From assembly GCA_019358915.1 (NCBI GenBank), contig JAHHIM010000027.1, positions 1-62,710 on the forward strand: a stretch of DNA of 62,710 nt, read 5' to 3'. The position numbers were made by a program, and so were the translations under genes. The notes beneath the pieces were generated by a model. The model was given only the letters and a program-made list of their open reading frames with translations. It did no database searches and had not been told where the DNA came from. The DNA is from Trichormus sp. ATA11-4-KO1. Its GTDB lineage: Bacteria > Cyanobacteriota > Cyanobacteriia > Cyanobacteriales > Nostocaceae. Shown here piece by piece: positions 10,703-60,673 of the stretch (positions within the stretch are counted from its first letter, which is position 1; each line of letters begins with the position of its first letter).

Positions 10703-13684
10703 GTGGTATTACAAGTACAAAGCAGCACCTACGAAGCTAAAACTCAGGAAATTGCTAAACAGCTTCTTGCTGCAACTAAGGAAAATCGTTCGTTTTTAGG
10801 TTCTCTGCGCGATCAGATGCGCTGGGATGATAAATTACTCGCTTGGGCGATGAGTAACCCAGGGTTGCGGGTGCAATTATTTCGTTTTATAGATACATTA
10901 CCCGCCTTGCAACATAAAGCGGAAATTGCTAGGCATTTACAAGAATATTTAGGAGATGAATCTGTAGAATTACCCGCAGCTTTAAAGGGGATGCTTAACT
11001 TTGCGAACCCTGATTCTATGCCGGGACAAGTGGCGGCGACTACTGTTTCTACAGCCGTGGAAACTTTGGCACATAAATATATTTCTGGGGAAAATATTAA
11101 ACAAGTTATTAAAACAGTTGAACGACTGCGAAAGGAAAAAATGGCTTTCACCATTGATTTACTTGGTGAGGCGGTAATTACGGAAGCGGAGGCGCAGTCT
11201 TATCTAGAACGCTATCTAGAATTAATGCAACAATTGGTAGAAGCGTCGCAGAATTGGGGTGTAATTCCGGCTATTGATGAAGCTGATGGCGAAACGCTAC
11301 CAAAAGTCCAAGTTTCTGTGAAGTTAACGGCGTTTTATTCGCAATTTGACCCTTTAGATGCTAAGGGTAGTGAGGAACGAGTAAGTGATCGCATTCGGAT
11401 TTTATTACGTCGGGCGAAAGAGTTGGGCGCATCTGTCCATTTTGATATGGAACAGTATGCTTATAAAGATTTAACTCTCAATATTTTGCAAAAGTTGTTA
11501 CTGGAAGAAGAATTTCGCCAACGTACAGATGTTGGGATGACAATTCAAGCATATCTGCGTGACAGTGAGGAGGATGCTAAAAAGTTAATTTCTTGGTTAA
11601 AACAGCGTGGTTATCCTTTGACAATTCGTTTAGTGAAGGGCGCTTATTGGGATCAGGAAACGATTAAAGCGGAACAGAAACATTGGCCACAGCCAGTTTA
11701 TCACGATAAGGTGGCAACTGATGCCAATTTTGAAGCTATCACTCAATTGTTGTTGGAAAATTACCAATATGTGTATGCTGCTATTGGTAGTCATAATGTG
11801 CGATCGCAAGCACGAGCTATAGCTATAGCTGAAAGTTTAAATGTCCCTCGCCGTTGCTTTGAAATGCAGGTGTTGTATGGGATGGGGGATAAGTTGGCTA
11901 AGGCTTTGGTGGATAAGGGTTATCGGGTGAGGGTTTATTGTCCCTATGGTGAATTGTTACCAGGGATGGCTTATCTGATTCGGCGGTTGTTGGAAAATAC
12001 AGCTAATAGTTCGTTTTTACGGCAAAATTTGGAGGATAGACCGATTGAGGAGTTGTTGGCGGCTCCGATTGGGGATTTGTCTCACGCAAAGGCGCAAAGT
12101 CGCAAAGATGAGGAGGGGTTTACTGGGGTTGCGGATACGGATTATGCGGAAGCAGAGGCAAGAAATATGTCTACTCAAGCTTTTCAAGAGGTGCGGCGTC
12201 AACTGGGTAGGACTTATCTACCGTTGATTAATGGGGAGTATGTTGATACTTCTGAGTTTGTTGATTCGCTGAATCCTTCTAATTTTAGTGAGGTGGTTGG
12301 TAGGGTTGGTTTGATTAGTGTGGCACAGGCGGAGCAGGCGATGCGAGCGGCTAAGGCGGCGTTTCCTGGTTGGCGCAAAACACCTGTGCAGCAACGGGCT
12401 GGGGTGTTGCGAAAGGCGGCTGATTTGATGGAAGCACGTCGGGCTGAACTTTCGGCTTGGATTGTTTTGGAGGTGGGGAAACCTGTTAAGGAGGCGGATG
12501 CGGAGGTTTCTGAGGCGATAGATTTCTGTCGCTATTATGCTGAGGAAATGGAACGGCTGGATAAAGGTGTTAATTATGACGTTGCGGGTGAAAATAATCG
12601 TTATATTTACCAGCCTAGGGGAATTGCTGTAGTGATTTCTCCTTGGAATTTCCCGTTGGCGATCGCTTGTGGTATGACTGTTGCTGCTTTGGTTGCGGGT
12701 AATTGTACTCTTCTGAAACCTGCGGAAACATCTTCGGTAATTACGGCGAAACTAACGGAAATTTTAATTGAGGCTGGCATTCCTAAAGGTGTTTTTCAAT
12801 ACGTACCCGGTAAGGGTTCCCAAGTAGGTGCTTATTTGGTAAATCATCCTGATACTCACATTATTGCTTTTACTGGTTCTCAAGAAGTTGGTTGTCAGAT
12901 TTATGCAGAAGCCGCAACCCTGAAGCCAGGACAAAAGCATCTTAAGCGGGTAATTGCGGAAATGGGCGGTAAAAATGCCATTATTGTGGATGAAAGTGCT
13001 GATTTAGACCAAGCTGTTGTCGGGGTGGTACAGTCCGCATTTGGTTACAGTGGACAAAAATGTTCTGCTTGTTCGCGGGTGATTGTGCTGCAACCAATTT
13101 ATGATGCCTTTGTCCGGCGGTTGGTGGAGGCGACGAAATCCTTAAATATTGGTGAGGCTGAGTTACCTAGTACCCAAGTTGGCCCGGTGATTGATGCTAA
13201 GTCCCGCGATCGCATCCGTGAGTATATTGAGAAGGGTAAAGCACAAGCACAGGTAGCTTTGGAATTACCAGCACCAGAACAAGGGTATTTTATCGGCCCA
13301 GTCATTTTTAGTGAAGTAGCACCGGATGCAATAATTGCCCAACAAGAAATTTTTGGGCCTGTGCTGGCGGTAACTAAAGTGAAAGATTTTGCGGAAGCTT
13401 TAACCGTCGCTAATGGTACTAACTATGCTTTGACTGGGGGACTTTATTCTCGCACACCTTCCCACATTCAGCAGGCACAGGAAGATTTTGAAATCGGGAA
13501 TTTGTACATTAATCGCACTATCACAGGTGCTATAGTTGCACGGCAACCCTTTGGAGGATTCAAACTTTCTGGTGTGGGTTCTAAAGCCGGAGGTCCTGAT
13601 TATCTCCTACAATTTTTGGAACCGCGTACAATCACCGAAAATATTCAGCGCCAAGGTTTTGCACCAATTGAAGGCGCAGAATAA
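10703..13684 (+). CDS. putA: Bifunctional proline dehydrogenase / glutamate-5-semialdehyde dehydrogenase
   Basis: RLVKGAYWD, YLIRRLLEN, ISPWNFP, FTGS, EMGGKN, GQKCSAC, EIFGP. Confidence 0.96.
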   Translation: MVLQVQSSTYEAKTQEIAKQLLAATKENRSFLGSLRDQMRWDDKLLAWAMSNPGLRVQLFRFIDTLPALQHKAEIARHLQEYLGDESVELPAALKGMLNFANPDSMPGQVAATTVSTAVETLAHKYISGENIKQVIKTVERLRKEKMAFTIDLLGEAVITEAEAQSYLERYLELMQQLVEASQNWGVIPAIDEADGETLPKVQVSVKLTAFYSQFDPLDAKGSEERVSDRIRILLRRAKELGASVHFDMEQYAYKDLTLNILQKLLLEEEFRQRTDVGMTIQAYLRDSEEDAKKLISWLKQRGYPLTIRLVKGAYWDQETIKAEQKHWPQPVYHDKVATDANFEAITQLLLENYQYVYAAIGSHNVRSQARAIAIAESLNVPRRCFEMQVLYGMGDKLAKALVDKGYRVRVYCPYGELLPGMAYLIRRLLENTANSSFLRQNLEDRPIEELLAAPIGDLSHAKAQSRKDEEGFTGVADTDYAEAEARNMSTQAFQEVRRQLGRTYLPLINGEYVDTSEFVDSLNPSNFSEVVGRVGLISVAQAEQAMRAAKAAFPGWRKTPVQQRAGVLRKAADLMEARRAELSAWIVLEVGKPVKEADAEVSEAIDFCRYYAEEMERLDKGVNYDVAGENNRYIYQPRGIAVVISPWNFPLAIACGMTVAALVAGNCTLLKPAETSSVITAKLTEILIEAGIPKGVFQYVPGKGSQVGAYLVNHPDTHIIAFTGSQEVGCQIYAEAATLKPGQKHLKRVIAEMGGKNAIIVDESADLDQAVVGVVQSAFGYSGQKCSACSRVIVLQPIYDAFVRRLVEATKSLNIGEAELPSTQVGPVIDAKSRDRIREYIEKGKAQAQVALELPAPEQGYFIGPVIFSEVAPDAIIAQQEIFGPVLAVTKVKDFAEALTVANGTNYALTGGLYSRTPSHIQQAQEDFEIGNLYINRTITGAIVARQPFGGFKLSGVGSKAGGPDYLLQFLEPRTITENIQRQGFAPIEGAE
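12080..12107 (+). repeat. CGCAAAG-type short repeat embedded in-frame in putA
   Basis: TCTCACGCAAAGGCGCAAAGTCGCAAAG; a near-identical intergenic copy is at 34346-34373 (minus). Confidence 0.8.
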
Positions 13685-13820: not shown

Positions 13821-14534
13821 CTAAATAGTAGCAGAACGAGCTTCATCGACTTTGAGGGTCGTTCCTGTAATAAACTTGGCATCATCAGAAATCAGAAAAG
13901 CCACTGTTTTCGCTAACTCAGTGTAAGTTGCAGGGCGACCCCACATCAAATCAGCAGGAACGTTCCATCCTGCTAACTCTTCCATCCTATCTGCCACAAA
14001 AAAGGGAGCGACTGAATTCATGCGAATGCCATCTGCTCTGTAACGCTTGGCGTATAATTTTGTGAATCCTTCCATTGCAGCACGGAGGGTGCCGCTAAAT
14101 GGAGTTCCTAACTCCGGTTCATGGGAATCACAAGCGGAAATATTGACGATCGCACCACCTCCACCTTGCCGCATCGGTTCTGTGACCAGTCTTACTATGC
14201 GAACAACACTCAGAAATAACATTTCAAAATTCTCCATCCATATTGCATCAGAAATAGAAAGCAAATCAGGACGGGGAGGATCGCCAAAACTATTCACCAC
14301 TGCATCGATACGCCCAAAATTCTCCAGTGTTGTCTCAACCAAATTCTCCAAATCATGAGAACTTGTCATTGATCCCTGAATAGCAATTCCACTTAACTCG
14401 TCTGCTAAATCCATCACTTCAGGAGAACGCGCAATCAGTGCAACTCTATAGCCTTGTGTTGCTAACTCTCGCGCACAACCTGCCCCAATTCCCCGACTGG
14501 CAGCTGTGATAATTGCCACCTTTTGTAAATTCAT
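13821..14534 (-). CDS. SDR family oxidoreductase (atypical)
   Basis: ITAASRGIG, FITGTTLKVD. Lacks canonical YxxxK (SGTLR). Confidence 0.85.
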   Translation of the reverse strand: MNLQKVAIITAASRGIGAGCARELATQGYRVALIARSPEVMDLADELSGIAIQGSMTSSHDLENLVETTLENFGRIDAVVNSFGDPPRPDLLSISDAIWMENFEMLFLSVVRIVRLVTEPMRQGGGGAIVNISACDSHEPELGTPFSGTLRAAMEGFTKLYAKRYRADGIRMNSVAPFFVADRMEELAGWNVPADLMWGRPATYTELAKTVAFLISDDAKFITGTTLKVDEARSATI

Positions 14535-25232: not shown

Positions 25233-25575
25233 TAGCCCTTTCAAGGTGTAATATATTTTTCTTAACGTGAATTCGATGAACCTCACCCCAACCCCTCTCC
25301 GACACGGAGAGGGGCAAAAATCTCCCTAGTTTTGAACTAAAAATCAAGGTTTCAAAGCCTCTACGCCACTTGCTACAACGCGGGGAACCCGCGCAACGCA
25401 GTGGCTCCTCCTGGCAGGGGAGAGGTTTGGAGAGGGGTTTTTTCCACTTGTCGAACTCACGTTTTCTTAGTGTCTTAGTGGTTAAAAAAATGATATTTGA
25501 ACACAAAGACACAAAGGTGGAAAGCCTAAAATTGTGTCCAATTTTACGTGATTTTTACTCACCTTGAATGGGCTG
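25233..25575. mobile_element. MITE (TAGCCCTTTCAAGGTG ends) carrying a nested second MITE
   Basis: IRs TAGCCCTTTCAAGGTG / CACCTTGAATGGGCTG. An uninterrupted sibling is at 36733-36886. Confidence 0.8.
25264..25463. mobile_element. Nested MITE with 5-bp flanking direct repeat
   Basis: IRs AACGTGAATTCGA / TCGAACTCACGTT. TTCTT on both sides (25259-63, 25464-68). Confidence 0.8.
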
Positions 25576-25974: not shown

Positions 25975-26185
25975 TATAGCCATCTGATTTGAATCGTGAG
26001 AAAATAGGAAAATTAAAACTACATATTTTTTCTTGCTCACAAATGGTTTAGGAATGCTATGGCCGTCCTAAACCATAAGTCCTGCGGACACGCTACGCTT
26101 ACTGTTGCACAAGTAGGAACCACGAAAAGGCGCGGTACGCGTTACGCGCACGTTTATTTTCACAAATCATCTAGCGATTGCCATA
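25975..26185. mobile_element. Two tandem degenerate MITE-like repeats
   Basis: Two units bounded by TATAGC/TATGGC..GCTAT/GCCATA ends with TCACAAAT sub-terminal motifs. Confidence 0.45.
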
Positions 26186-26228
26186 TCACAACAAATTATC
26201 AGAAAATTATTACAGCAACAGTGATGAT

Positions 26229-27182
26229 ATGAACTTATTACCTGCAACTACCCCAAAAACATTTAGCCTGTTAAGTATTGGTCAACGAGGAGTAGGCAAA
26301 ACAGTTTTTCTAGCTGGTAGCTACTCAGAATTACACCCTGATAATTGCTCAGACAATTCTCAGGAGTTGTGGTTTGATTGCCAGGATAGCGATGTCCAAG
26401 CAAACCTGGAAAAGATTAAAAACCATGTTGCTCGTACCAGTTCATATCCACCCCCGACAATTAAAATTACTAACTTTAACTTTAGTTTGAAACGTCAAAG
26501 TCGCTGGGGTGCGAAAACAGTATGCCATTTTCGCTGGTGGGATATTCCTGGAGAGTCATGTAATATTCGCAATCCTGATTTTCAAGAAATGATCCTGGCT
26601 TCCAATAGCTGCTGTGTATTTATTAATGCCCATGCTCTGATACAGGATCAAGACTACCCAGGCGTAATTGAAGACATTTATAACCAGGTAGCAGCGATCG
26701 CCTCCATAGTCTATCAGTATAATCTCAAATATGCCTTTGCGCTGATTTTGACTCAATGCGACCTGATCGAACTCAATCCAGTTAACCTGCAACAAATTGA
26801 GCAGAACCTGCAACCACTGATTACCTACCTTGATTTGGTGAAAGCCACTCATCAAATATTCTATTCAGCCATACCTATTGTTTCTGTAGAAGGTGTTTCC
26901 CGTCTCCAGGCTAAAGGTGCGGCGACTCCACTCCTGTGGCTGCTATCACAGCTGAATGATTCTGCCATTTCATCGCCACCAGATGTAACGAGCGGATTAA
27001 GCGAAAAATTAATTATTGGTCAAAGATTACCACCAAAAACCCGCAGGTCTATTGTCATTATGTCTTTGGTAAGTGTTGGTTTACTGGGGGCGATCGCGTC
27101 ACTTTTTTTTGCCTTCAATCTATTTACACCTTTTCCTCAACCAATGCCAACAACCGAACAAACGCCAAACTCTACTCAATAA
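26229..27182 (+). CDS. TRAFAC-type P-loop GTPase-like protein with C-terminal TM helix
   Basis: G1 GQRGVGKT, G2 PPPT, G3 WDIPGE, G4-like LTQCD, hydrophobic segment near the C-terminus. Start at MNLL assumed because upstream is MITE. Confidence 0.8.
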   Translation: MNLLPATTPKTFSLLSIGQRGVGKTVFLAGSYSELHPDNCSDNSQELWFDCQDSDVQANLEKIKNHVARTSSYPPPTIKITNFNFSLKRQSRWGAKTVCHFRWWDIPGESCNIRNPDFQEMILASNSCCVFINAHALIQDQDYPGVIEDIYNQVAAIASIVYQYNLKYAFALILTQCDLIELNPVNLQQIEQNLQPLITYLDLVKATHQIFYSAIPIVSVEGVSRLQAKGAATPLLWLLSQLNDSAISSPPDVTSGLSEKLIIGQRLPPKTRRSIVIMSLVSVGLLGAIASLFFAFNLFTPFPQPMPTTEQTPNSTQ

Positions 27183-27390
27183 TCATGACATTGCCAACTA
27201 ATCGTGAATAGGGTTTGCTAGACTATACCAACTTGAAAACAGAATGCAACAAATACAAACCCAGAAACCTAAATTGAGTTTGACTTTCTTCATGACAAAT
27301 TACATCAAGCCCTGACAGATATAGCTACCCTGACGGTGTAGCCTGCTGTGGGCTGCTATTACGAATTACGAATTATGAATTGGTATTAGT

Positions 27391-29172
27391 ATGACCCCTT
27401 TAGTTTTAGGTCAACTTATATACACTAGCTTTCCTGTCGTAGGATTTAGAACCTTGGCGAGTACACAGGTTCCCCCAGAAATTCAGCAAGCCTTCATTCA
27501 ACAAGTAGTTTATCAGTATTGGGATTCCTATGATCCTCCAAGTGCAGGATACCGAGCAGCTTATCTACATCAGCTAACCTCAGAACATAACTTGTTCGGT
27601 TGGTTATATAACGATGGAATAGATGATTTCGGTCGCAGCGATGTCCCCTACTTCGTCTGTTACTATTTAGCAGGTCAACTACAGCCCGTCCAACTCGAAA
27701 ATATTTTTATTTGCCTACGTACCGGGCCAGTAACGCTCATAAACAGGCAAATCTTACCAATTTCTTTGGAAAACTTGGTTGCTCCCGACTTTTCGAGTTA
27801 CCAACCAGTTCGTGAGGGGGTAGAGATTCCTAGAGAAATGATTGAGCAAAGCCAAATTGCCCTTCAGCAGGGAGAATTGCTCCATTTGTTTAATTGTGAT
27901 CCTGAGGAGAAAATACCAAGTATTTCTATTTCTCAGAGAAATTTAATTTCTGCCACTATAGATAAAACACCACGTTCATTAATGCCATGCATACTTTATA
28001 CAGATAAAACCCCGCCTCAAACCATTATCCAGCAAGAGTTGCCGCTAGTAATTCAGTCAGTAGAAGATTATCGCCAAATTCTCCTAGATCAAGTTCGCTT
28101 CCGAGATAGGACAGAAGTTGTTTTTCCCTTTGCTGGGAAGTTGACCTTGATGCTGGGGATGATAGCTGGTATGATTTCGCTGCTCGCTTTGATACTTGGC
28201 CGCTACTACTTTCTGAAAGTCACACCTTTTAGTGCTATTGTCCAACAAGCTCCAGATTCTATCCCAACTAAAAATCTCACTCTCACCAGAACTTTAGCTA
28301 GTCATTCAGATTCTGTGTGGTCTATTGTTCTTACCTCCAATGGTCAGACTTTGGTTAGTGCTAGTGCAGATAAAACTATTAAAGTTTGGAATTTAAATAC
28401 TGGGAAAATTGTATCCACACTTCTAGGACATAACGATACAGTCAGGGCGATCGCTCTCAGTGCAGATGGGCAAACTTTGGTCAGTGGGAGTGGAGACCAG
28501 ACGATTAAAATTTGGAATTTTCAGACCTTCGAGCTGATGAGGACAATTACCCCCAATGCTGGCCCGGTTTGGTCAGTTGCTCTTAGTGATGATGGACAGA
28601 CCTTGGTCAGTGGCAATGAAGATGGTAGCATTAAAATTTGGAACTTTCATACAGGTCAACTCCTCCGCACCATTGCAGGGCATGAGGGTCGGGTTTTTTC
28701 TGTTGCTATCAGTCCTGACGGCGAGACTTTTGCCACGGTGGGTCTTGACAAAACTATCAAAATGTGGGGTTTATATACAGGTGAACTCCTCCGCACCATT
28801 GAGGGACATGAGGATGCGGTGAGATCCGTAATCTTTAGCCGCGACGGAAAGACACTCGCCAGCGCTAGTTGGGATCAGACCATTAAGACTTGGAATGTCC
28901 AGACAGGCGAACTCCTGCACACCTTAGTAGGGCATACCTCACGGGTAGTTACTCTGGCTTTGGGACTTGATGGACAAACTCTTGCCAGTGGCAGTATTGA
29001 CAATCAGGTGAAAATTTGGGATTGGCAAACGGGAAAATTACTCCACACCCTTTCTGGTCATTCCGACTGGATATTAGCGATCGCCACTAGCCCGACAAAG
29101 CCAATCCTCGTGAGTAGCAGTAAAGACAAGACCATTCGGATTTGGCGGACTCAAATCAATAACGGGACATAG
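27391..29172 (+). CDS. GAP1-N2-like N-terminal domain + TM helix + WD40 propeller
   Basis: N-terminal GQLIYTSF..GF and D.FGR motifs, TM at ~aa 250-272, seven WD repeats. Confidence 0.85.
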   Translation: MTPLVLGQLIYTSFPVVGFRTLASTQVPPEIQQAFIQQVVYQYWDSYDPPSAGYRAAYLHQLTSEHNLFGWLYNDGIDDFGRSDVPYFVCYYLAGQLQPVQLENIFICLRTGPVTLINRQILPISLENLVAPDFSSYQPVREGVEIPREMIEQSQIALQQGELLHLFNCDPEEKIPSISISQRNLISATIDKTPRSLMPCILYTDKTPPQTIIQQELPLVIQSVEDYRQILLDQVRFRDRTEVVFPFAGKLTLMLGMIAGMISLLALILGRYYFLKVTPFSAIVQQAPDSIPTKNLTLTRTLASHSDSVWSIVLTSNGQTLVSASADKTIKVWNLNTGKIVSTLLGHNDTVRAIALSADGQTLVSGSGDQTIKIWNFQTFELMRTITPNAGPVWSVALSDDGQTLVSGNEDGSIKIWNFHTGQLLRTIAGHEGRVFSVAISPDGETFATVGLDKTIKMWGLYTGELLRTIEGHEDAVRSVIFSRDGKTLASASWDQTIKTWNVQTGELLHTLVGHTSRVVTLALGLDGQTLASGSIDNQVKIWDWQTGKLLHTLSGHSDWILAIATSPTKPILVSSSKDKTIRIWRTQINNGT

Positions 29173-29200
29173 CACTCAGCACTTTGCTATAGCTGGTAGC

Positions 29201-29742
29201 TCAGGGCAATAACTCAAAATAATCACAGTGGGTTGGACGAATAATCGAAAAGTCTCGACGATCAAGCGTGTAAATGCGAGTAATAGTTAGCCTTTCTGCT
29301 ACGGTAACGATTGCTGCATCTGTAAAATCAAGCTGACTGTCTGCATATTGCTCCAGAATCTCATGCACTCGTGCTAAATCCTCTGCGATTACAGGTTCAA
29401 CCCGAACCGCTTTGGTCGTCAGGCTAGACACAAAATGGCGCATTGCCTTATGCCCTAGCCTTGAAGCAATCAGGTAGCAAATTTCAGGTAGAACAACTAT
29501 AGGTAGGACTAATACCTCATTTGCACTCTGAGCAACAGCCAACACCCGATGGTGATTGCGATCGCTCTGGTCAACATAATTCGTAATTGATAATTCGTAA
29601 TTCGTAGTTACAATCAGTGGGGGCTTGTACCCTCTTTAATTACGAATTACGTTCGCGAAGCGTGCCGTAGGCTCTATTACGAATTAGTAATTATTTGGTC
29701 AGTTAAGGCAAATAAAAAACTGGTATCAAGTATCGCTGTCAT
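29201..29742 (-). pseudogene. PIN-domain (VapC-like) toxin disrupted by a 128-bp insert
   Basis: MTAILDTSFLFALTD|insert|QSDRNHHRV..LPE..LDFTDAA..TLDRRDF. Removing the insert restores a 137-aa ORF. Confidence 0.9.
29570..29697. mobile_element. 128-bp mini-element, copy 2
   Basis: Ends and core shared with 20920-21051; GTCA on both sides. Confidence 0.85.
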
Positions 29743-30014
29743 GCAGGATTACTCGGCTTGATATTCCAGCCATACACAGGATTAATTTCATTACGTAGAA
29801 TCTCCTCATCACGTTCTGAAACATCCTGCTGACCAGATTTGCCTAAGCCTGCAACTGCAAACAGAAAATTGGCAGCATTATTGTTAAGTTTTCTTCGTTG
29901 ATCTGATTTATAACGAAGATAGTCAAGGAAAGTAGCAAGTTCAAACAAAGCCTCATCAGGAAGGGTGCTGACTGCCTCTATTAGCTTTTGCCGTTCTACA
30001 GTAGTTCCGTCCAT
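29739..30014 (-). CDS. Putative antitoxin
   Basis: ATGA overlap with the PIN gene; DVSERDEEIL C-terminal motif. Confidence 0.75.
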   Translation of the reverse strand: MDGTTVERQKLIEAVSTLPDEALFELATFLDYLRYKSDQRRKLNNNAANFLFAVAGLGKSGQQDVSERDEEILRNEINPVYGWNIKPSNPA

Positions 30015-30387
30015 TGCTAAATCTTGAGGGAAAGGATTGTCTCTATTTTACTTCTCCACTCCCGGTAAGGCTGATTATTGATGACCACAAACAGTCAACA
30101 TTCAACCACTGTCTCCATCAAAAATTTCAGCCAGCTAACGGCTCAAATCAAAGGTTTGTTTTACGTATTGCCAGCATTATAAAGGGTTTGAGAGTCAAAG
30201 CTACCTTGTCGGCTAAACGCTTATGTATGGGTTATTTTGCTAGTTTTGCCAAGATTTTTGTAGGCTCTTATTTTGGCAAAGGTGTTGCTGGTTCTTGAGT
30301 AGAATTTGCCCTAAATCTATTGTAAACACGCTGTTAAAAGTTACTTGAGAAACAGCAAAGTATAAACAAAAAGCAACTCGTTCTACT

Positions 30388-30897
30388 TTAGCTGACTCTA
30401 ATATAAGGAACCACCCGATCCCAAATGTGAGGAAATTGTTGGCGGAAATACTCAGGCTGACCAAGTTCCATGTCACGGAAATCAAAGCCTGGTGCAACAG
30501 CTTCCCCTAATAGTCCAAATTCTCCTTCTTCTAAGACTCCTGCTTTCCAGTAGCCACCAGGAACAAGAAGTTGGGGCACTTCTCCCTTATTTAGATCTAG
30601 ACCAAGTTTACACTTTTGCAATGTGCCATTGGGATGAATGAGAAGATATGTCACCGGTGAACCAAGATGGAAGTAATGCAGAATGTCAGACTTGTTGAGA
30701 TGAAAGTAATCGATTGGGCTATCATCTGTGAGGAGATAATATATTGAAGTCATGGCTGACCTTTGCTGCCCCTCTCGATCAGTTTCAATCATCATGTCAG
30801 AACGATAAGTCTCGGCATAATAACCCCCTTCTGGGTGCATTTGCAAGGAGAATTTTTGGATTAGGTCGTGCTTATTCATAGTCATTAAATAATTCAA
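30388..30897 (-). CDS. Cupin_5 (DUF985) protein
   Basis: HPEGGYY, TSIYYLL, VAPGFDF. Confidence 0.92.
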   Translation of the reverse strand: MNYLMTMNKHDLIQKFSLQMHPEGGYYAETYRSDMMIETDREGQQRSAMTSIYYLLTDDSPIDYFHLNKSDILHYFHLGSPVTYLLIHPNGTLQKCKLGLDLNKGEVPQLLVPGGYWKAGVLEEGEFGLLGEAVAPGFDFRDMELGQPEYFRQQFPHIWDRVVPYIRVS

Positions 30898-31025
30898 TCA
30901 CTTTAAATTCACCTATTTTGACATAGTCCCTCGAAATAAAATTTTTAGCTGAAAACCCAGTTGAATTTTATGATTCCTCCTGGTTACACCCTGGGTGTTA
31001 GCTCAGTAAAAATATTTTAGCAGTG

Positions 31026-31111: not shown

Positions 31112-32137
31112 TTAGTTAGCCAGCGTCTGAGCGGTAACTTCCGGTTGAGCGTGAATCTCGTTTGGACAGGGACGACCTTGTTCAATGTCAGTAATATTAG
31201 CAAAAGTTGTCTGTGCAATATTGTGGAGAGCTTCTTCCGTAAAAAAGGCTTGATGTCCGGTTACCAGCACATTAGGAAAAGTTGTCAGCCGTTGGAAAAC
31301 ATCATCCTGAATGATTTCGCCAGACAAATCCTCAAAGAACAAGTCCGATTCCTGTTCGTAGACATCCACACCCAGAGAGCCTATTTTGCGGGTCTTCAGT
31401 CCTTCGATTACTGCTTGGGTATCAATCAGCGCTCCTCGGCTGGTGTTAATTAACATCACCCTTGGTTTCATCTGTGCTATGGTCTCGGCATTGATCAAGT
31501 GATGAGTTTCCGGAGTTAGAGGACAATGCAGAGATATAATATCAGAGTTGGCAAATAGCTCAGGTAAGTCTACATACTTACCACCTAGTGCTTCCAACTC
31601 AGGGTTGCGATACACATCATAAGCAAGTAAATCACAACCAAAACCCTTCATGATTTGTCCCAAAATCAGACCAATTTTTCCAGTACCAATGATCCCCACT
31701 GTACGCCCATTCAAGTTAAATCCCAACAGACCTGTTAGGGAAAAATTACCTTCCCGGACGCGGTTATAGGCACGATGAATTTTGCGATTGAGGCTCAAAA
31801 TTAATCCCACAGCATGTTCCGCTACTCCATAAGGTGAATAAGCCGGCACACGTACAACATTAATCCCTAAATTCGCTGCGGCTTGTAAGTCTACATTATT
31901 AAATCCTGCACACCGGAGGGCAATCAGGCGAGTTCCCCCGGAAGCGAGAATTTCTAAAGTTGGCGCATCAACTAAATCATGTACAAATACGCAAACAGCC
32001 GGAAATCCGGCAGCCAAAATCGCGGTATTTTGATGCAAACGGGGTTCAAAGAAAACTAATTCATGTTGGATAGGCGAATTTGCAGCTGACAAAAACTGCC
32101 GATCATAGGGCTTTGTACTGAAGACTGCTACTTTCAT
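31112..32137 (-). CDS. ldhA: D-lactate / 2-hydroxyacid dehydrogenase
   Basis: [40 protein letters not shown]. Confidence 0.9.
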
Positions 32138-34224: not shown

Positions 34225-34345
34225 TGGAGGGATGGGGGGACAAGAGCAGGGCTGATTCGTTCCCTAAAAGGGTTAAAATTGCAAGGGCAAATCCACAATT
34301 AAGACCGAAAATTTTGGCATCTTCAGTCCGAAATACCTGATTTTT

Positions 34346-34373
34346 CTTTGCGTCTTTGCGCCTTTGCGTGAGA
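34346..34373 (-). repeat. Intergenic CGCAAAG-type repeat
   Basis: Minus strand TCTCACGCAAAGGCGCAAAGACGCAAAG. Confidence 0.75.
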
Positions 34374-34744
34374 TTATCCTCTTGACAAATCTCCAACACA
34401 AGCCAATGAAACAGCCCTGGGGACAAGGGGACAAGAAAAATTATTTCTACCTTCCTATCTCCCAATGCCCAATACCCAGAAACAAGATCCCCCTAGCCGT
34501 CTTTTTTCTTGCAGCTAGGGGGATCACATATGTGGTAGTCTATAAATGGTTCAGTATAGTGGCTTACGTAATCGATTTTAAAGCCTATATTTGGTTTTGT
34601 GTAGTCACATAATTAGAATTTATACAATTTTTATAGCAGCTTCATCACCGCTTCATTCCCATGCTTGGCGGAAAAAACGTATATGTTTAAGTATGGTATT
34701 AAGTATTGCATAACTTTTCATTCTTGTTAAGATCCGTAGAAAGT

Positions 34745-36732: not shown

Positions 36733-36886
36733 TAGCCCTTTCAATATGTCATGTATTTTTCTTGGTGTCTTAGTGTCTTAGTGGTAAAAAAAATAACTTT
36801 TAAACCACAAAGGCACAAAGACACAAAGGTGGAAGTCCTAAAATTGGAAAAATTTTAGGTAGTTTTTACCCACCTGGAAAGGGCTG
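36733..36886. mobile_element. MITE, sibling of 25233-25575
   Basis: TAGCCCTTTCAA..CACCTGGAAAGGGCTG with the shared CTTAGTGT and CACAAAGA internal repeats. Confidence 0.8.
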
Positions 36887-51797: not shown

Positions 51798-51898
51798 TGT
51801 TTCGCGCAAAGGCGCAAAGGCGCGAGTAGTTATTAACATTGTACCAAGAGCTAAGGCAATTGATACTGCTGCGATCGCTAGCAAGTTAATTCAGTAAA

Positions 51899-57351: not shown

Positions 57352-60267
57352 CTAAAACTCCCCGGCTAAGGCGGGAACGCAGCGTTCACATAATAAGGGA
57401 TGCTCTTTTGATTCTCCCACATGGGTAGAATAATTCCAGCAGCGATCGCATTTCTCCCCTTCTGCTTTGTAAACCTGAAAATATATGGGTGCATCATCTC
57501 CTTCCTCACGGATAGGTTCAGATGGTACTTCCACTTGAGAAACTAAAAATAGATATCGTAACTCATCTACACCATTACTTTTTTCAAGTGAACCATGAGT
57601 ACTGGGATTGAGAGTTTGTAAAAGTTGACGTAATCTCTCATCAAAGACATGCAGTACAACTTTGGCTTCTAGAGAAGATCCAATTGTTTTTTGTATTCGA
57701 TATACCTCTAGTTTCCGGTTGACTTCATCACGAATTTTTCGTAAGTCTGTCCAAAATTCCCCTAACTCTGGATTATTCCAGGCTTCATCTACTTGCACCC
57801 AACCGGCTTCAAATACCGATTTATAAGGTGTTTTGTAGGGAATATATTGCCAGATATCTTCAGCAGTATGACATAACACAGGTGCGATCGCTCTAGCTAA
57901 ATTCTCTAAAGCAATCTGCAATACTGTTTGACAGCTGCGACGACGGAAAGCATTAGCAGCACTAATGTACAGTCTATCTTTGGCAACATCTAAATAGAAG
58001 TTGGATAAATCCACAACGCAGAAATTCTGCACTGTTTGGAAAAAGCGGAAGAATTGGAAGGGCTGCTTCTCTTCCTTACCTTCGGCTACAGGTTTAGGTT
58101 CAAAAGCGGCTGTAACTTCCTCAAAAACCTCCGTCATGCGGTGTAGCATATAACGGTCGAGTTCTGGCAAATCTTCCAAAGGTACTGCATCTTTTTCGGG
58201 GTCAAAATCATGCAAACTACCCAACAAAAATCGCGCTGTATTGCGAATCTTATTTCTAACATCAGCTAATTGCTTGATGATATTACCACCCAGACGCACA
58301 TCAGCAGAATAATCTACCGAAGACACCCACAAACGCAGCACATCTGCACCATAGGGGGGTTCTTTTTTCTGGTCTTTCCCGCCATTAATTACTACTTGGG
58401 GGTCAACCACATTCCCCACAGACTTACTCATCTTCCGTCCTTGTTCATCTAAGACAAAGCCGTGAGTCAAGACAGTTTTATAAGGTGCAATGCCATTGAC
58501 TGCTACACTTGTCAGCAAACTTGACTGGAACCATCCCCGGTGTTGGTCGGAACCTTCCAAATACATATCAGCCGGGTAACGTAACTCAGGACGTTGTTTC
58601 GCTACAGCCGCCCAAGATGAACCAGAATCAAACCACACATCCATTGTGTCTGTACCTTTGCGGTAAGACTTACCATCGTTGCGGTAAGACTGGGGTAATA
58701 ACTCCTCTACCGACATTTCCCACCAAGCATCAGAACCTTTTTCGGCGATGATAGCTTGGACATGATTAATAGTTTCCTCATTCAGTAGCGGTTCCCCAGT
58801 AGCTTCATCGTAGAACACCGGAATGGGTACACCCCAACTACGCTGACGAGAAATACACCAATCAGAACGTTCCGCCACCATCGGCGTGATGCGATTTTCA
58901 CCTTGGGCTGGAATCCATTTTACCGCAGCGATCGCCTTTAATGCTTCATCCCTAAAACCAGCCACCGAAGCAAACCATTGTTCCGTCGCCCGGAAAATCG
59001 TCGGCTTTTTCGTCCGCCAATCATAAGGATACTTGTGCGCGTAAGCTTCCTCCTTCAACAAAGAACCAGCAGCCGTCAACGCATCAATTACCGCTTGATT
59101 TCCCTCACCCAGCACATTCAACCCAGCAAACTCACCCGCTTCCTGAGTAAAATTGCCATTGTCATCCACTGGTGCGAGAATCGGTAACTTATAACGCTGA
59201 CCCACAATGTAGTCTTCTTGACCATGACCCGGTGCAGTATGTACCAACCCAGTACCCGACTCAGTAGTAATATAATCACCACCCACCACCACCGGACTTT
59301 CACGGTCAAACAAAGGATGACGATAAGTAGAATGTTCTAACTCCCGCCCCTTAAACGTAGCCCTCACCGTTAAATCCACATCCAAAGTAGCAGCCAAACG
59401 TTCCACCAAATCAGTAGCCACAATTAGATATTCACTTTGCGTCTTTGCGTCTTGGCGCGAAACCTCCACCACCGCATAATTCAAATCACCATTTACCGCC
59501 ACAGCCAAATTCCCCGGAATCGTCCAAGGAGTAGTAGTCCACACAGCCACACTCAAATTCGGCAGAAATTCCCTCAACACAGGTTGTACCGCCTCAGCCA
59601 ACTTAGTCACCCGAAAAGCCGCATAAATACTGCGAGAAGTATGACCCTCCGGATATTCCAACTCCGCCTCAGCCAAAGCCGTCTTAGAACTGGGACTCCA
59701 ATGCACAGGCTTCAAACCACGATAGATGTATCCTTTTAACACCATCTGACCGAACACACCAATTTGCGCCGCCTCATATTCCGGCTTCAAAGTCAGATAA
59801 GGATGATCCCAATCACCCCAAACACCGTAGCGTTTAAAACATTCCCGTTGGTCATTTACCGTAGCTAAAGCAAACTCCTGCGCTTTTTGCCGTAGAGTTA
59901 AAGGCGTTAAATTTTGCCGTTCTGCCGACTTCATATTTTGCAGAACCTTCAACTCAATCGGTAAACCGTGACAATCCCAACCAGGCACGTATCTAACTTT
60001 ACGCCCTTGTAGCAGTTGGTAACGGTTAATAATATCTTTGAGAATTTTATTTAAGGCATGACCAATATGCAGTGAGCCATTAGCGTAGGGAGGCCCATCA
60101 TGAAGTATAAATAATTCGCCTGGGTTTTCTTGCGACAGGCGATCATAAATATTATTTTCTGCCCAGAACTTTTGGATTTCGGGTTCCCGCTTGATGGCGT
60201 TCGCCCGCATATCGAATTTAGTCTTGGGTAAGTTTACCGTATCTTTGTAGCTTCCAGGTTCTGTCAC
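57352..60267 (-). CDS. ileS: Isoleucine--tRNA ligase (GTG start at 60267)
   Basis: HIGH, WTTTPWT, GTGLVH, KMSKS, C-terminal CDRC..CERC. Confidence 0.98.
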   Translation of the reverse strand: MTEPGSYKDTVNLPKTKFDMRANAIKREPEIQKFWAENNIYDRLSQENPGELFILHDGPPYANGSLHIGHALNKILKDIINRYQLLQGRKVRYVPGWDCHGLPIELKVLQNMKSAERQNLTPLTLRQKAQEFALATVNDQRECFKRYGVWGDWDHPYLTLKPEYEAAQIGVFGQMVLKGYIYRGLKPVHWSPSSKTALAEAELEYPEGHTSRSIYAAFRVTKLAEAVQPVLREFLPNLSVAVWTTTPWTIPGNLAVAVNGDLNYAVVEVSRQDAKTQSEYLIVATDLVERLAATLDVDLTVRATFKGRELEHSTYRHPLFDRESPVVVGGDYITTESGTGLVHTAPGHGQEDYIVGQRYKLPILAPVDDNGNFTQEAGEFAGLNVLGEGNQAVIDALTAAGSLLKEEAYAHKYPYDWRTKKPTIFRATEQWFASVAGFRDEALKAIAAVKWIPAQGENRITPMVAERSDWCISRQRSWGVPIPVFYDEATGEPLLNEETINHVQAIIAEKGSDAWWEMSVEELLPQSYRNDGKSYRKGTDTMDVWFDSGSSWAAVAKQRPELRYPADMYLEGSDQHRGWFQSSLLTSVAVNGIAPYKTVLTHGFVLDEQGRKMSKSVGNVVDPQVVINGGKDQKKEPPYGADVLRLWVSSVDYSADVRLGGNIIKQLADVRNKIRNTARFLLGSLHDFDPEKDAVPLEDLPELDRYMLHRMTEVFEEVTAAFEPKPVAEGKEEKQPFQFFRFFQTVQNFCVVDLSNFYLDVAKDRLYISAANAFRRRSCQTVLQIALENLARAIAPVLCHTAEDIWQYIPYKTPYKSVFEAGWVQVDEAWNNPELGEFWTDLRKIRDEVNRKLEVYRIQKTIGSSLEAKVVLHVFDERLRQLLQTLNPSTHGSLEKSNGVDELRYLFLVSQVEVPSEPIREEGDDAPIYFQVYKAEGEKCDRCWNYSTHVGESKEHPLLCERCVPALAGEF
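59435..59462 (-). repeat. CGCAAAG-type repeat embedded in-frame in ileS
   Basis: Coding strand TTTCGCGCCAAGACGCAAAGACGCAAAG (SRQDAKTQS). Confidence 0.75.
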
Positions 60268-60322
60268 AGTCTCATGCCTAAGATTATATGTGCAGGTTAT
60301 CCAATCAATTATAGAAGATGGC

Positions 60323-60673
60323 ATGATTCCCCAAAATTCTTTGCTGCCCAATGCCGAAAATGCAATTGTTGATATTCGTAAACTGCGTGACTACAGCCTT
60401 AATCCAAACCATCCTACAGGTAAGGATAAAGCCCGTCTTTTTTCCTCTATTTTGGGGATAACTGCTGATAATGCTGAAGAATTGCGTCAAATTATTTTGG
60501 CAAAAGTCAAAACTCAAGCAGTTAGCTTAAATCGGTGTGATGAGTTTGGGCAACGTTACACACTGGATTTTACTCTGTAATGGCAAAATAGAAGTGCAAC
60601 TATCCGCACTGGTTGGATAATTCAACCTGATAGTGATATTCCCAGATTAACCAGTTGCTATCCTTTGTTGTAA
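60323..60673 (+). pseudogene. DUF6883-like protein with internal TAA stop (60578-60580)
   Basis: KLRDYSLNPNHPTGKDKARLF..FGQRY; frame continues WQNRSATIRTGWII..PRLTSCYPLL*. Confidence 0.8.

What the first reader, a model, noticed from the sequence alone, without database searches (positions are those of the whole stretch)
11800..12700. Strand-specific G/T synonymous-site halo centred on a CGCAAAG repeat inside putA
Seen: by hand count, codon third positions are G/T in 38/40 codons at 12242-12361 and 34/40 at 11882-12001, versus 22/40 at the gene start. The in-frame repeat at 12080-12107 sits between these blocks, while the protein remains a normal PutA. Inference: loss of A and C on one strand fits A>G and C>T changes, the pattern expected from repeated single-strand exposure or error-prone re-copying triggered at the repeat. 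This would be a repeat-directed local mutagenesis or replacement process. I do not know of a description, but cannot exclude one.
Basis: partly seen in the sequence, partly recalled or inferred. Interest (0 to 1): 0.82.

Follow-up and report, generated by a model that had tools for sequence, protein, structure and literature searches.

The report
Repeat-set strand bias in cyanobacterial genes
A 28-base repeat, which elsewhere forms the arms of a small nuclease gene of unknown function, shifts silent DNA letters toward G and T on its own strand for about 500 bases on both sides in cyanobacteria, apparently by deciding which strand is kept during local DNA repair.

Summary
The halo is real and general. 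In this genome 42 of 154 scorable solo repeat copies have halos (z>3; 2 reversed; random sites 3.4%), on both sides and in genes of either direction; 0 of 48 copies carried by a young MITE do. It recurs in five other cyanobacterial genomes and fades in putA orthologues that lost the repeat. The repeat family forms the inverted arms of GxxExxY (PF13366) nuclease-fold genes; no HUH gene was found. Best reading (inferred): the opposite strand is nicked and replaced, so the repeat strand is kept. Against: no gradient outside cyanobacteria (41 of 80), the cognate nuclease clade is missing from this assembly, and 67 of 111 skew peaks lack the repeat. The scan noted similar skews before on other DNA; eight literature searches found no description.

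The parts
10703..13684 (+). putA, intact 993-aa proline dehydrogenase / P5C dehydrogenase; host gene
   Evidence: PutA_N, Pro_dh, Aldedh
12080..12107 (+). Solo repeat (lead plus three CGCAAAG units), in frame in the interdomain linker; arm type of one GxxExxY clade
11840..12740 (+). G/T-enriched synonymous-site halo on the repeat strand, both sides
   Evidence: z=10.5
11800..11807 (.). HIP1 palindrome near the 5' edge of the halo; carries its own small additive skew, not a halo boundary
12659..12666 (.). HIP1 palindrome near the 3' edge of the halo; truncation tested and rejected
57352..60351 (-). ileS, second host gene in the window
59435..59457 (-). Solo in-frame repeat in ileS
58950..59900 (-). 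G/T halo on the minus strand around the ileS repeat (approximate limits)
   Evidence: GT3 0.76-0.91
34247..34419 (-). Young 173-bp terminal-inverted-repeat MITE carrying the same repeat (34346-34368); no halo: internal control
51805..51819 (+). Two-unit intergenic copy with a halo on its 5' side only (z 3.5 / -0.9)
36806..36828 (+). Three-unit intergenic copy of a related variant; not among the 70 strongest sites
25502..25516 (+). Two-unit copy of the same variant as 36806; halo not examined singly

Best explanation
The repeat is a dispersed arm of a selfish repeat-plus-nuclease element (GxxExxY, PF13366). Wherever a copy stays long enough, it makes its own strand the one that is kept when mismatches or lesions within about 500 bases on either side are resolved. 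SHOWN: the halo follows the repeat strand, not the gene; it needs long residence; it decays after loss; each base-pair change is redistributed between the strands (one direction up, its complement down, sum about 2.4-2.7 times background); the repeat co-occurs and co-varies with GxxExxY genes. INFERRED: the GxxExxY protein nicks the strand opposite the repeat; host long-patch repair (MutS/MutL-type) removes and re-copies that strand in both directions; because G:T and G:U mismatches are much commoner than A:C (recalled textbook knowledge, no call), the kept strand drifts to G/T. The benefit to the element would be that the repeat-bearing strand wins against a repeat-free allele; the halo is the by-product.
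For: Unbiased scan: the only A/C-rich words at the top of the oriented ranking are pieces of this family; 32 of 111 peaks hold a tandem copy on the halo strand, 5 on the other, against 2.6% of random windows. Solo copies 110 of 154 positive, 42 z>3, 2 z<-3; MITE-borne copies 24 of 48, 0 z>3; MITE copies differ from their consensus by about 1 base (36 copies). Odds ratios G:A 2.96 in same-strand and 2.22 in opposite-strand genes, T:C 2.63 and 3.15 (sites chosen for z>=3.5). Five other genomes, three families: 89 of 112 positive, 39 z>3, 4 z<-3, both gene directions. putA orthologues: near-zone GT3 0.783 in 46 with the repeat, 0.613 in 27 without; far zone 0.528 and 0.536; on repeat-free branches near-zone rates revert (A>G 0.38, G>A 4.83). 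Four-fold sites, 81 taxa: A>G 3.05x, A>T 3.72x, T>G 2.60x, C>T 2.13x; T>C 0.39x, G>A 0.38x, T>A 0.30x, G>C 0.31x. AIC: strand redistribution 31794-31797, full model 31796-31799, per-base selection 31807-31817, rises-only 31951-31964, deamination-only 32059-32060. Independent of that tree, G000 against G001 in strong halos: 18 C/T differences at 706 two-fold sites against 748 at 13586 far sites, and 70 A/G at 764 against 791 at 14211. All 3 GxxExxY genes of this genome sit between inverted copies. Three-unit copies number 13 or more in 22 of 23 genomes with the gene (exception: a gene with 2 stops) and 11 or fewer in 17 of 18 without. Arm subtypes track protein clades, and GT3 falls from 0.76 to 0.29 along the gene in 56 of 57 cyanobacterial genes, as two opposed halos predict. 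D63, E73, K75 invariant in 12 aligned proteins; best fold matches AddA, Cas4, Hjc, all at E>0.001. mutL is present.
Against: No nicking, binding or repair step was observed. In a cross-phylum sample the GxxExxY genes show no gradient (41 of 80; 26 of 44 with an arm detected) and flanks are flat, so repeat plus nuclease is not sufficient. The nuclease clade whose arms match the putA repeat was not found in this assembly (present in G001), and G140 and G259 keep repeat and halo with no PF13366 hit. 44 of 154 solo copies have z<=0. 67 of 111 peaks lack even a relaxed motif on the halo strand. Non-ORF DNA beside strong copies is only weakly skewed (G+T 0.534 and 0.533 against 0.506 and 0.504; n=1462, 857). 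The rate models rest on one gene (94 near and 188 far four-fold sites), a fixed tree and independent sites; the lead over selection is only 13-20 AIC. At two-fold pyrimidine sites a rises-only mixture fitted as well as a decrease. G>T and C>A both stay near or above 1. In the G000/G001 pair C>T is barely raised (about 1.2x if at equilibrium; my calculation). Related genomes are not independent.
Confidence: 0.45

Rival explanations
1. Same strand choice, but set without the nuclease: host repair reads the repeat itself (a slipped loop of the tandem units, a one-strand methyl mark or a bound host protein) as its strand signal. GxxExxY only spreads the repeat.
For: Halos persist where the cognate gene was not found (G000; G140, G259). 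The effect is lineage-bound. HIP1, the proposed cyanobacterial repair signal (PMC4390886, section 3.4), has its own strand footprint here: G at two-fold purine sites 0.329 on its 5' side against 0.279 on its 3' side, T 0.701 against 0.654, n about 26,000-31,000 each, controls flat.
Against: Other tandem 7-9-mers in the genome show at most weak effects (largest: GGGGAGT family, mean shift about 0.03). Missing genes may be recent losses or assembly gaps; 62 of 66 genomes carry one. Halos decay slowly (five recent replacements still show 0.65-0.83).
Confidence: 0.2
2. Strand-polarised gene conversion: the repeat strand is the donor in recombination between chromosome copies or with incoming DNA, and G:T wobble pairs are tolerated better than A:C, so donor G and T alleles spread.
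For: Gives rises and falls together, as seen; a one-parameter fixation bias beats rises-only at two-fold purine sites by 29-33 lnL units. Linker states are interleaved on the tree in genus g63, suggesting exchange. HIP1 is linked to transformation (PMC13756078, abstract).
Against: A per-base fixation bias fits four-fold sites 13-20 AIC worse than strand redistribution, mainly because T>G rises without G>T falling.
Confidence: 0.15
3. Selection for G/T on the repeat strand (DNA or RNA structure) rather than a mutational or repair bias.
For: Fixation-bias model fits far better than rises-only; the skew is much stronger at synonymous than at non-ORF sites; in-gene copies have the strongest halos (11 of 16 z>3).
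Against: Equal effect in genes of either direction excludes mRNA or codon selection; no function is apparent; fit is worse than strand redistribution.
Confidence: 0.1
4. One reading: the repeat strand is exposed as single strand or re-copied with errors, adding A>G and C>T.
For: A>G 3.0-3.5x and C>T 2.1-2.2x in putA; A>G is somewhat higher than a pure fixation bias predicts.
Against: Cannot lower G>A, T>C, T>A or G>C; about 260 AIC worse; G>A decrease still needed with site-varying rises (14 lnL units); C/T divergence is halved in halos; no TC or other deaminase-like context.
Confidence: 0.05
5. The repeat inserts into DNA that was already G/T-rich.
For: None beyond co-location.
Against: Orthologous sites without the repeat are not skewed and revert after loss.
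Confidence: 0.02

Closest known systems
REP/REPIN elements and RAYT (TnpA-REP) genes (PMC3116915, passages read)
   Same: Small nuclease gene between inverted repeats; many dispersed gene-free copies, single or paired; repeat subtype tracks enzyme clade.
   Different: Enzyme is PD-(D/E)XK, not HUH/Y1; arms are tandem 8-9-base units, not palindromes; most copies are solo; no flanking substitution bias appears in the passages read.
Small dispersed repeats (SDR) of Nostocaceae (Elhai et al. 2008; not held, known only through citations in PMC5861425, PMC4390886, PMC2884548)
   Same: 21-27-base dispersed repeats in this lineage, some inside genes (size recalled, and 'some 20 bp' in PMC2884548). This repeat may well be one of those families.
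   Different: Could not be compared by sequence; the citing passages mention no nuclease partner and no halo. The family here also occurs outside Nostocaceae.
Strand-directed mismatch repair: MutH/GATC in E. coli and the proposed GmeC/HIP1-directed repair of cyanobacteria (PMC4390886, section 3.4 part 1 read)
   Same: A sequence mark decides which strand is nicked and re-copied, over about 1 kb, on both sides; this is the logic and range that fit the halo.
   Different: The mark here is a mobile, non-palindromic repeat that always favours the same strand whichever is new, so it fixes errors as often as it removes them; mutH is absent from cyanobacteria (PMC5101192, passage).
Leading/lagging-strand and mitochondrial single-strand skews (recalled; search listing only)
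   Same: G/T excess on one strand, independent of gene direction.
   Different: Range about 1 kb, no sign flip at the element, and reverse rates fall.
PF13366 / TIGR04256 GxxExxY proteins (PMC3424549, one table row: function 'Unknown', many transfers)
   Same: The three genes here pass both family cut-offs.
   Different: No repeat partner or activity is given in that row.

Membership tests
REP/RAYT system | HUH/Y1 transposase gene flanked by the repeats | tested here: not met
   PF01797: 0 matches in this genome (99.9% complete by markers); the flanked genes are PF13366
REP/RAYT system | Repeat is an imperfect palindrome, mostly in inverted doublets | tested here: not met
   Units are direct tandem; 241 of 295 clusters have no opposite-strand partner within 700 bp
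REP/RAYT system (works like) | Enzyme gene between inverted arms; repeat abundance and subtype follow the enzyme | tested here: met
GxxExxY / PDDEXK_3 proteins | Profile match over curated cut-off; D...ExK residues | tested here: met
   TIGR04256 141-149 bits against 35; D63, E73, K75 invariant
GxxExxY / PDDEXK_3 proteins | Nuclease or nickase activity on the repeat | not testable with these tools
   Fold matches only, best E=0.007
SDR families of Nostocaceae | Sequence match to a published SDR consensus | not testable with these tools
   Paper not held
Diversity-generating retroelement | RT beside a template/variable repeat pair; A-specific change confined to the variable repeat | tested here: not met
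   Changes affect all four bases over about 900 bp; the two RT genes lie on other contigs
Single-strand deamination gradient | Only C>T and A>G rise, reverse rates unchanged | tested here: not met
Replication-origin skew switch | Skew changes sign at the element | tested here: not met
   Same sign on both sides
Strand-directed mismatch repair | MutL present | tested here: met
   mutS was not searched
Strand-directed mismatch repair | Bias depends on MutS/MutL and on a strand nick | not testable with these tools
   needs mutants and nick mapping
HIP1-bounded repair tract | Halo ends at the first HIP1 | tested here: not met
   Multiplier beyond first 3' HIP1 0.93 and 1.22, chi-square change under 3, once HIP1's own skew is fitted

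The most novel reading that the evidence does not exclude
A selfish repeat-nuclease element that hijacks strand discrimination: GxxExxY nicks opposite its repeat so that host repair always keeps the repeat-bearing strand, which drives the repeat against empty alleles and rewrites silent sites for about 500 bases each way at dozens to hundreds of loci per genome. It would give PF13366 a function and, with the HIP1 footprint, expose the unknown strand signal of cyanobacterial mismatch repair.
Probability: 0.35. Interest if true: 0.92.

Novelty: categorically new. Interest (0 to 1): 0.82.

Why it matters
A 28-base oriented element that sets the local substitution spectrum strand by strand is not a known kind of bacterial mutational bias in the papers I could search. 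It makes two open questions testable with one reporter: how cyanobacteria, which lack MutH, choose the strand to repair, and what the widespread GxxExxY proteins do. It also means that synonymous composition, codon-bias and tree inference in core genes such as putA and ileS are distorted locally by a mobile repeat, and it suggests a compact signal for steering which strand is kept in genome editing.

Tried and rejected
1) 'Halo stops at the first 3' HIP1': looked strong in raw bins and marginal in step tests (p=0.03-0.05 here, 0.011 in other genomes) but vanished when HIP1's own additive skew was fitted. 2) RAYT/HUH partner: none found. 3) RT partner: two RT genes elsewhere. 4) Universality across phyla: not found. 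5) Test of nuclease need by genomes lacking it: only 4 of 66 lack it, inconclusive. 6) Parsimony polarisation with unanimous outgroups gave few events and is biased to slow sites (A>G 6/112 against 33/855; T>C 9/538 against 25/786); same directions except C>T (2/34 against 27/311), not relied on. 7) My first reading, that C>T and G>A are unchanged, was overturned by the larger ML analysis. 8) A 5'-AC-3' context, recalled as typical of repair-deficient E. coli, was not seen; the G:A odds ratio is highest before G (4.09) and lowest before C (1.76). 9) Other tandem 7-9-mers and single CGCAAAG words: little or no halo. 11) Fold search found no match at E<=0.001. 12) Literature searches found no description; subscription papers, Elhai 2008 among them, are not covered, and no supplements were read.
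Full report
Observation. The window is contig C27 of a 5.97-Mb, HIP1-rich cyanobacterial genome. The repeat at 12080-12107 lies in frame in the linker of an intact PutA. I called 4268 ORFs of at least 120 codons and scored each third position against the genome expectation for its amino acid and codon box. A scan blind to repeats gave 111 peaks with |z|>=5; putA ranks 5th and ileS, in the same window with a minus-strand repeat, 6th. Peak sign is unrelated to gene direction (58 against 53).

The repeat family. The oriented words enriched at peaks, and the A/C-rich 9-mers with the strongest G/T surroundings, are pieces of one family of tandem 8-9-base units. It has 295 clusters. Of 161 solo copies with unique flanks, 154 were scorable: 110 positive, 42 above z=3, 2 below -3, against 3.4% and 3.5% of 19,077 random sites. 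The excess is about 0.15 within 100 bp, fades by 600-800 bp, lies on both sides and appears in genes of both directions. Of 54 copies inside young MITEs, 48 were scorable: 24 positive, none above 3; 36 full MITE copies differ from their consensus by about one base. The same sequence in a young place therefore has no halo. In five other genomes (136 loci fetched, 114 solo and unique, 112 scorable) 89 were positive, 39 above 3 and 4 below -3. Against generality: 44 of 154 copies show nothing, and 67 of 111 peaks have no relaxed motif on the halo strand.

Orthologues. In 30 putA and 30 ileS orthologues the halo mostly follows the repeat; three ileS genes without a detected repeat (G027, G039, G013) are also G/T-rich there, and two with it (G004, G018) are weak. 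In a denser set of 82 putA genes (81 used, one partial ORF dropped) the repeat is old, kept in 46, degenerate in 8, absent in 27, with several separate losses. Near-zone GT3 is 0.783 with and 0.613 without it; far zones are equal. Old losses are near background, five recent replacements still show 0.65-0.83. This refutes insertion into pre-skewed DNA.

What changes. Two-state ML rates on repeat-bearing branches near the repeat against the far zone: A>G 2.98/0.84, G>A 1.19/2.89, C>T 5.89/2.65, T>C 0.42/0.68; on repeat-free branches the near zone reverts. At four-fold sites A>G, A>T, T>G and C>T rise 2.1-3.7x while T>C, G>A, T>A and G>C fall to 0.30-0.39x; A>C 0.64, C>G 1.48, G>T 1.58, C>A 1.31 have wider errors. 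Five models were compared: deamination-only AIC 32059, rises-only 31951-31964, per-base selection 31807-31817, strand redistribution 31794-31797, unconstrained 31796-31799. The fall in G>A survives site-varying rises (14 lnL units); for T>C at two-fold sites it does not resolve. The G000/G001 comparison across 389 kb aligned agrees: C/T divergence is halved and A/G divergence raised in strong halos (halos chosen by their skew in G000). Damage to exposed single strand can only add changes, so it is not the main cause; a process that decides which strand's base survives fits.

The partner gene. All three PF13366/TIGR04256 genes of the genome lie between inverted copies. Among 41 genomes, three-unit copies number 13-433 in 22 of 23 with the gene, and 0-11 in 17 of 18 without; the exceptions are a genome whose gene has two stops (1 copy) and one whose backward-pattern control is as high as its count. 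Kin are not independent. Arm subtypes follow protein clades, and in 56 of 57 cyanobacterial genes (65 loci given, 8 dropped for short or no match) GT3 falls along the gene, mean 0.76, 0.52, 0.29, as two opposed halos predict. The model is confident (pLDDT 95), the D...ExK residues are invariant, and the nearest folds are AddA, Cas4 and Hjc, none at E<=0.001. No Y1/HUH gene was found. Against a simple nuclease story: in 80 loci from many phyla, similar arms are common but the gradient is at chance (41 of 80; two rows had short frames and were kept) and flanks are flat; the clade matching the putA repeat was not found in this assembly though it is in G001; two genomes keep repeat and halo without a hit.

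HIP1. The putA halo happens to lie between HIP1 sites at 11800 and 12659. A boundary effect seemed present but disappeared once HIP1's own skew was fitted. That skew is real: each strand is G/T-richer 5' of HIP1 and A/C-richer 3' of it (z 8-12 per bin; other palindromes and non-HIP1 GATC near zero; 0.027 in the five other genomes). It is what a nick at HIP1 with 5'-to-3' excision of the new strand would leave (inference), and fits the repair model proposed in PMC4390886. It points to a cyanobacterial host pathway that could explain why the halo is lineage-bound.

Mechanism. Shown: strand, range, time dependence, redistribution of rates, link to GxxExxY. Inferred: a nick opposite the repeat, two-way removal and re-copying of that strand, and G/T drift of the kept strand because G:T and G:U mismatches dominate (recalled, no call). 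That the repeat causes a strand-specific bias by some route I put above 0.9.

What is known. Architecture resembles REP/RAYT (PMC3116915, passages) but fails its defining tests. The repeat may be a published SDR; that paper was not held, so this is open. PF13366 is listed as of unknown function (PMC3424549, one table row). Papers seen: PMC4390886 (passages and section 3.4 part 1 of 2), PMC5861425, PMC5101192, PMC3116915, PMC2884548, PMC3424549 and 10.1101/2021.01.26.428298 (passages), PMC13756078 (abstract and outline). Eight searches found no account of a substitution halo at such repeats; subscription journals and supplements were not covered. Earlier AI notes of this scan describe the cassette, a similar short-range skew in a lake bacterium and the HIP1 footprint on other DNA; they are leads, not support.

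Verdict. Observation confirmed, interpretation partly right, mechanism revised. The phenomenon is strong, replicated and undescribed in what I could search; the molecular steps remain inferred. Interest 0.82.

Noticed in passing
genome-wide; window 11800, 12659: HIP1 has an antisymmetric synonymous footprint: each strand G/T-richer 5' and A/C-richer 3' of the site, out to about 800 bp; controls flat; also in five other genomes.
   Followed up: partly
window 59435-59457 (ileS): Second in-frame repeat with an equally strong halo on the minus strand; orthologues mostly follow the same rule.
   Followed up: yes
window 34247-34419: 173-bp MITE with terminal inverted repeats, at least 37 near-identical copies in the genome, carrying a solo repeat as cargo; a second MITE-like family carries it too.
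   Followed up: partly
putA linker in orthologues (L005-L033, L164-L253): The linker is a hot spot where several unrelated small repeats replace or insert into one another; the same replacement element is scattered over the tree of genus g63, suggesting exchange between species.
   Followed up: no
G000 C41:31516, C36:408195, C34:28753, C33:49755, C45:16140, C56:12095: Strong skew peaks (|z| 8-13) with no family motif found; some lie near heptamer repeats or in very long genes.
   Followed up: partly
G000 C28:20326 and C67:6524: Two skew peaks fall in or beside the two reverse transcriptase genes.
   Followed up: no
L352, L369, L371, L361: A few non-cyanobacterial GxxExxY genes (Opitutaceae, Hymenobacter, Phycisphaerales, Blastocatellia by record title) do show a falling GT3 gradient, unlike most.
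   Followed up: no
L033 and L018 (putA of G034 and G020): G/T-rich third positions in the 3' part of putA, away from the linker; cause not sought.
   Followed up: no
genus g66 genomes: 12 of 13 genomes have only 1-6 copies of the putA repeat subtype and lack it in putA; the one that keeps it in putA has 114.
   Followed up: partly
genome-wide: The GGGGAGT heptamer family shows a weak G/T lean on its G-rich strand (36 sites, z 5.7 on one side).
   Followed up: no
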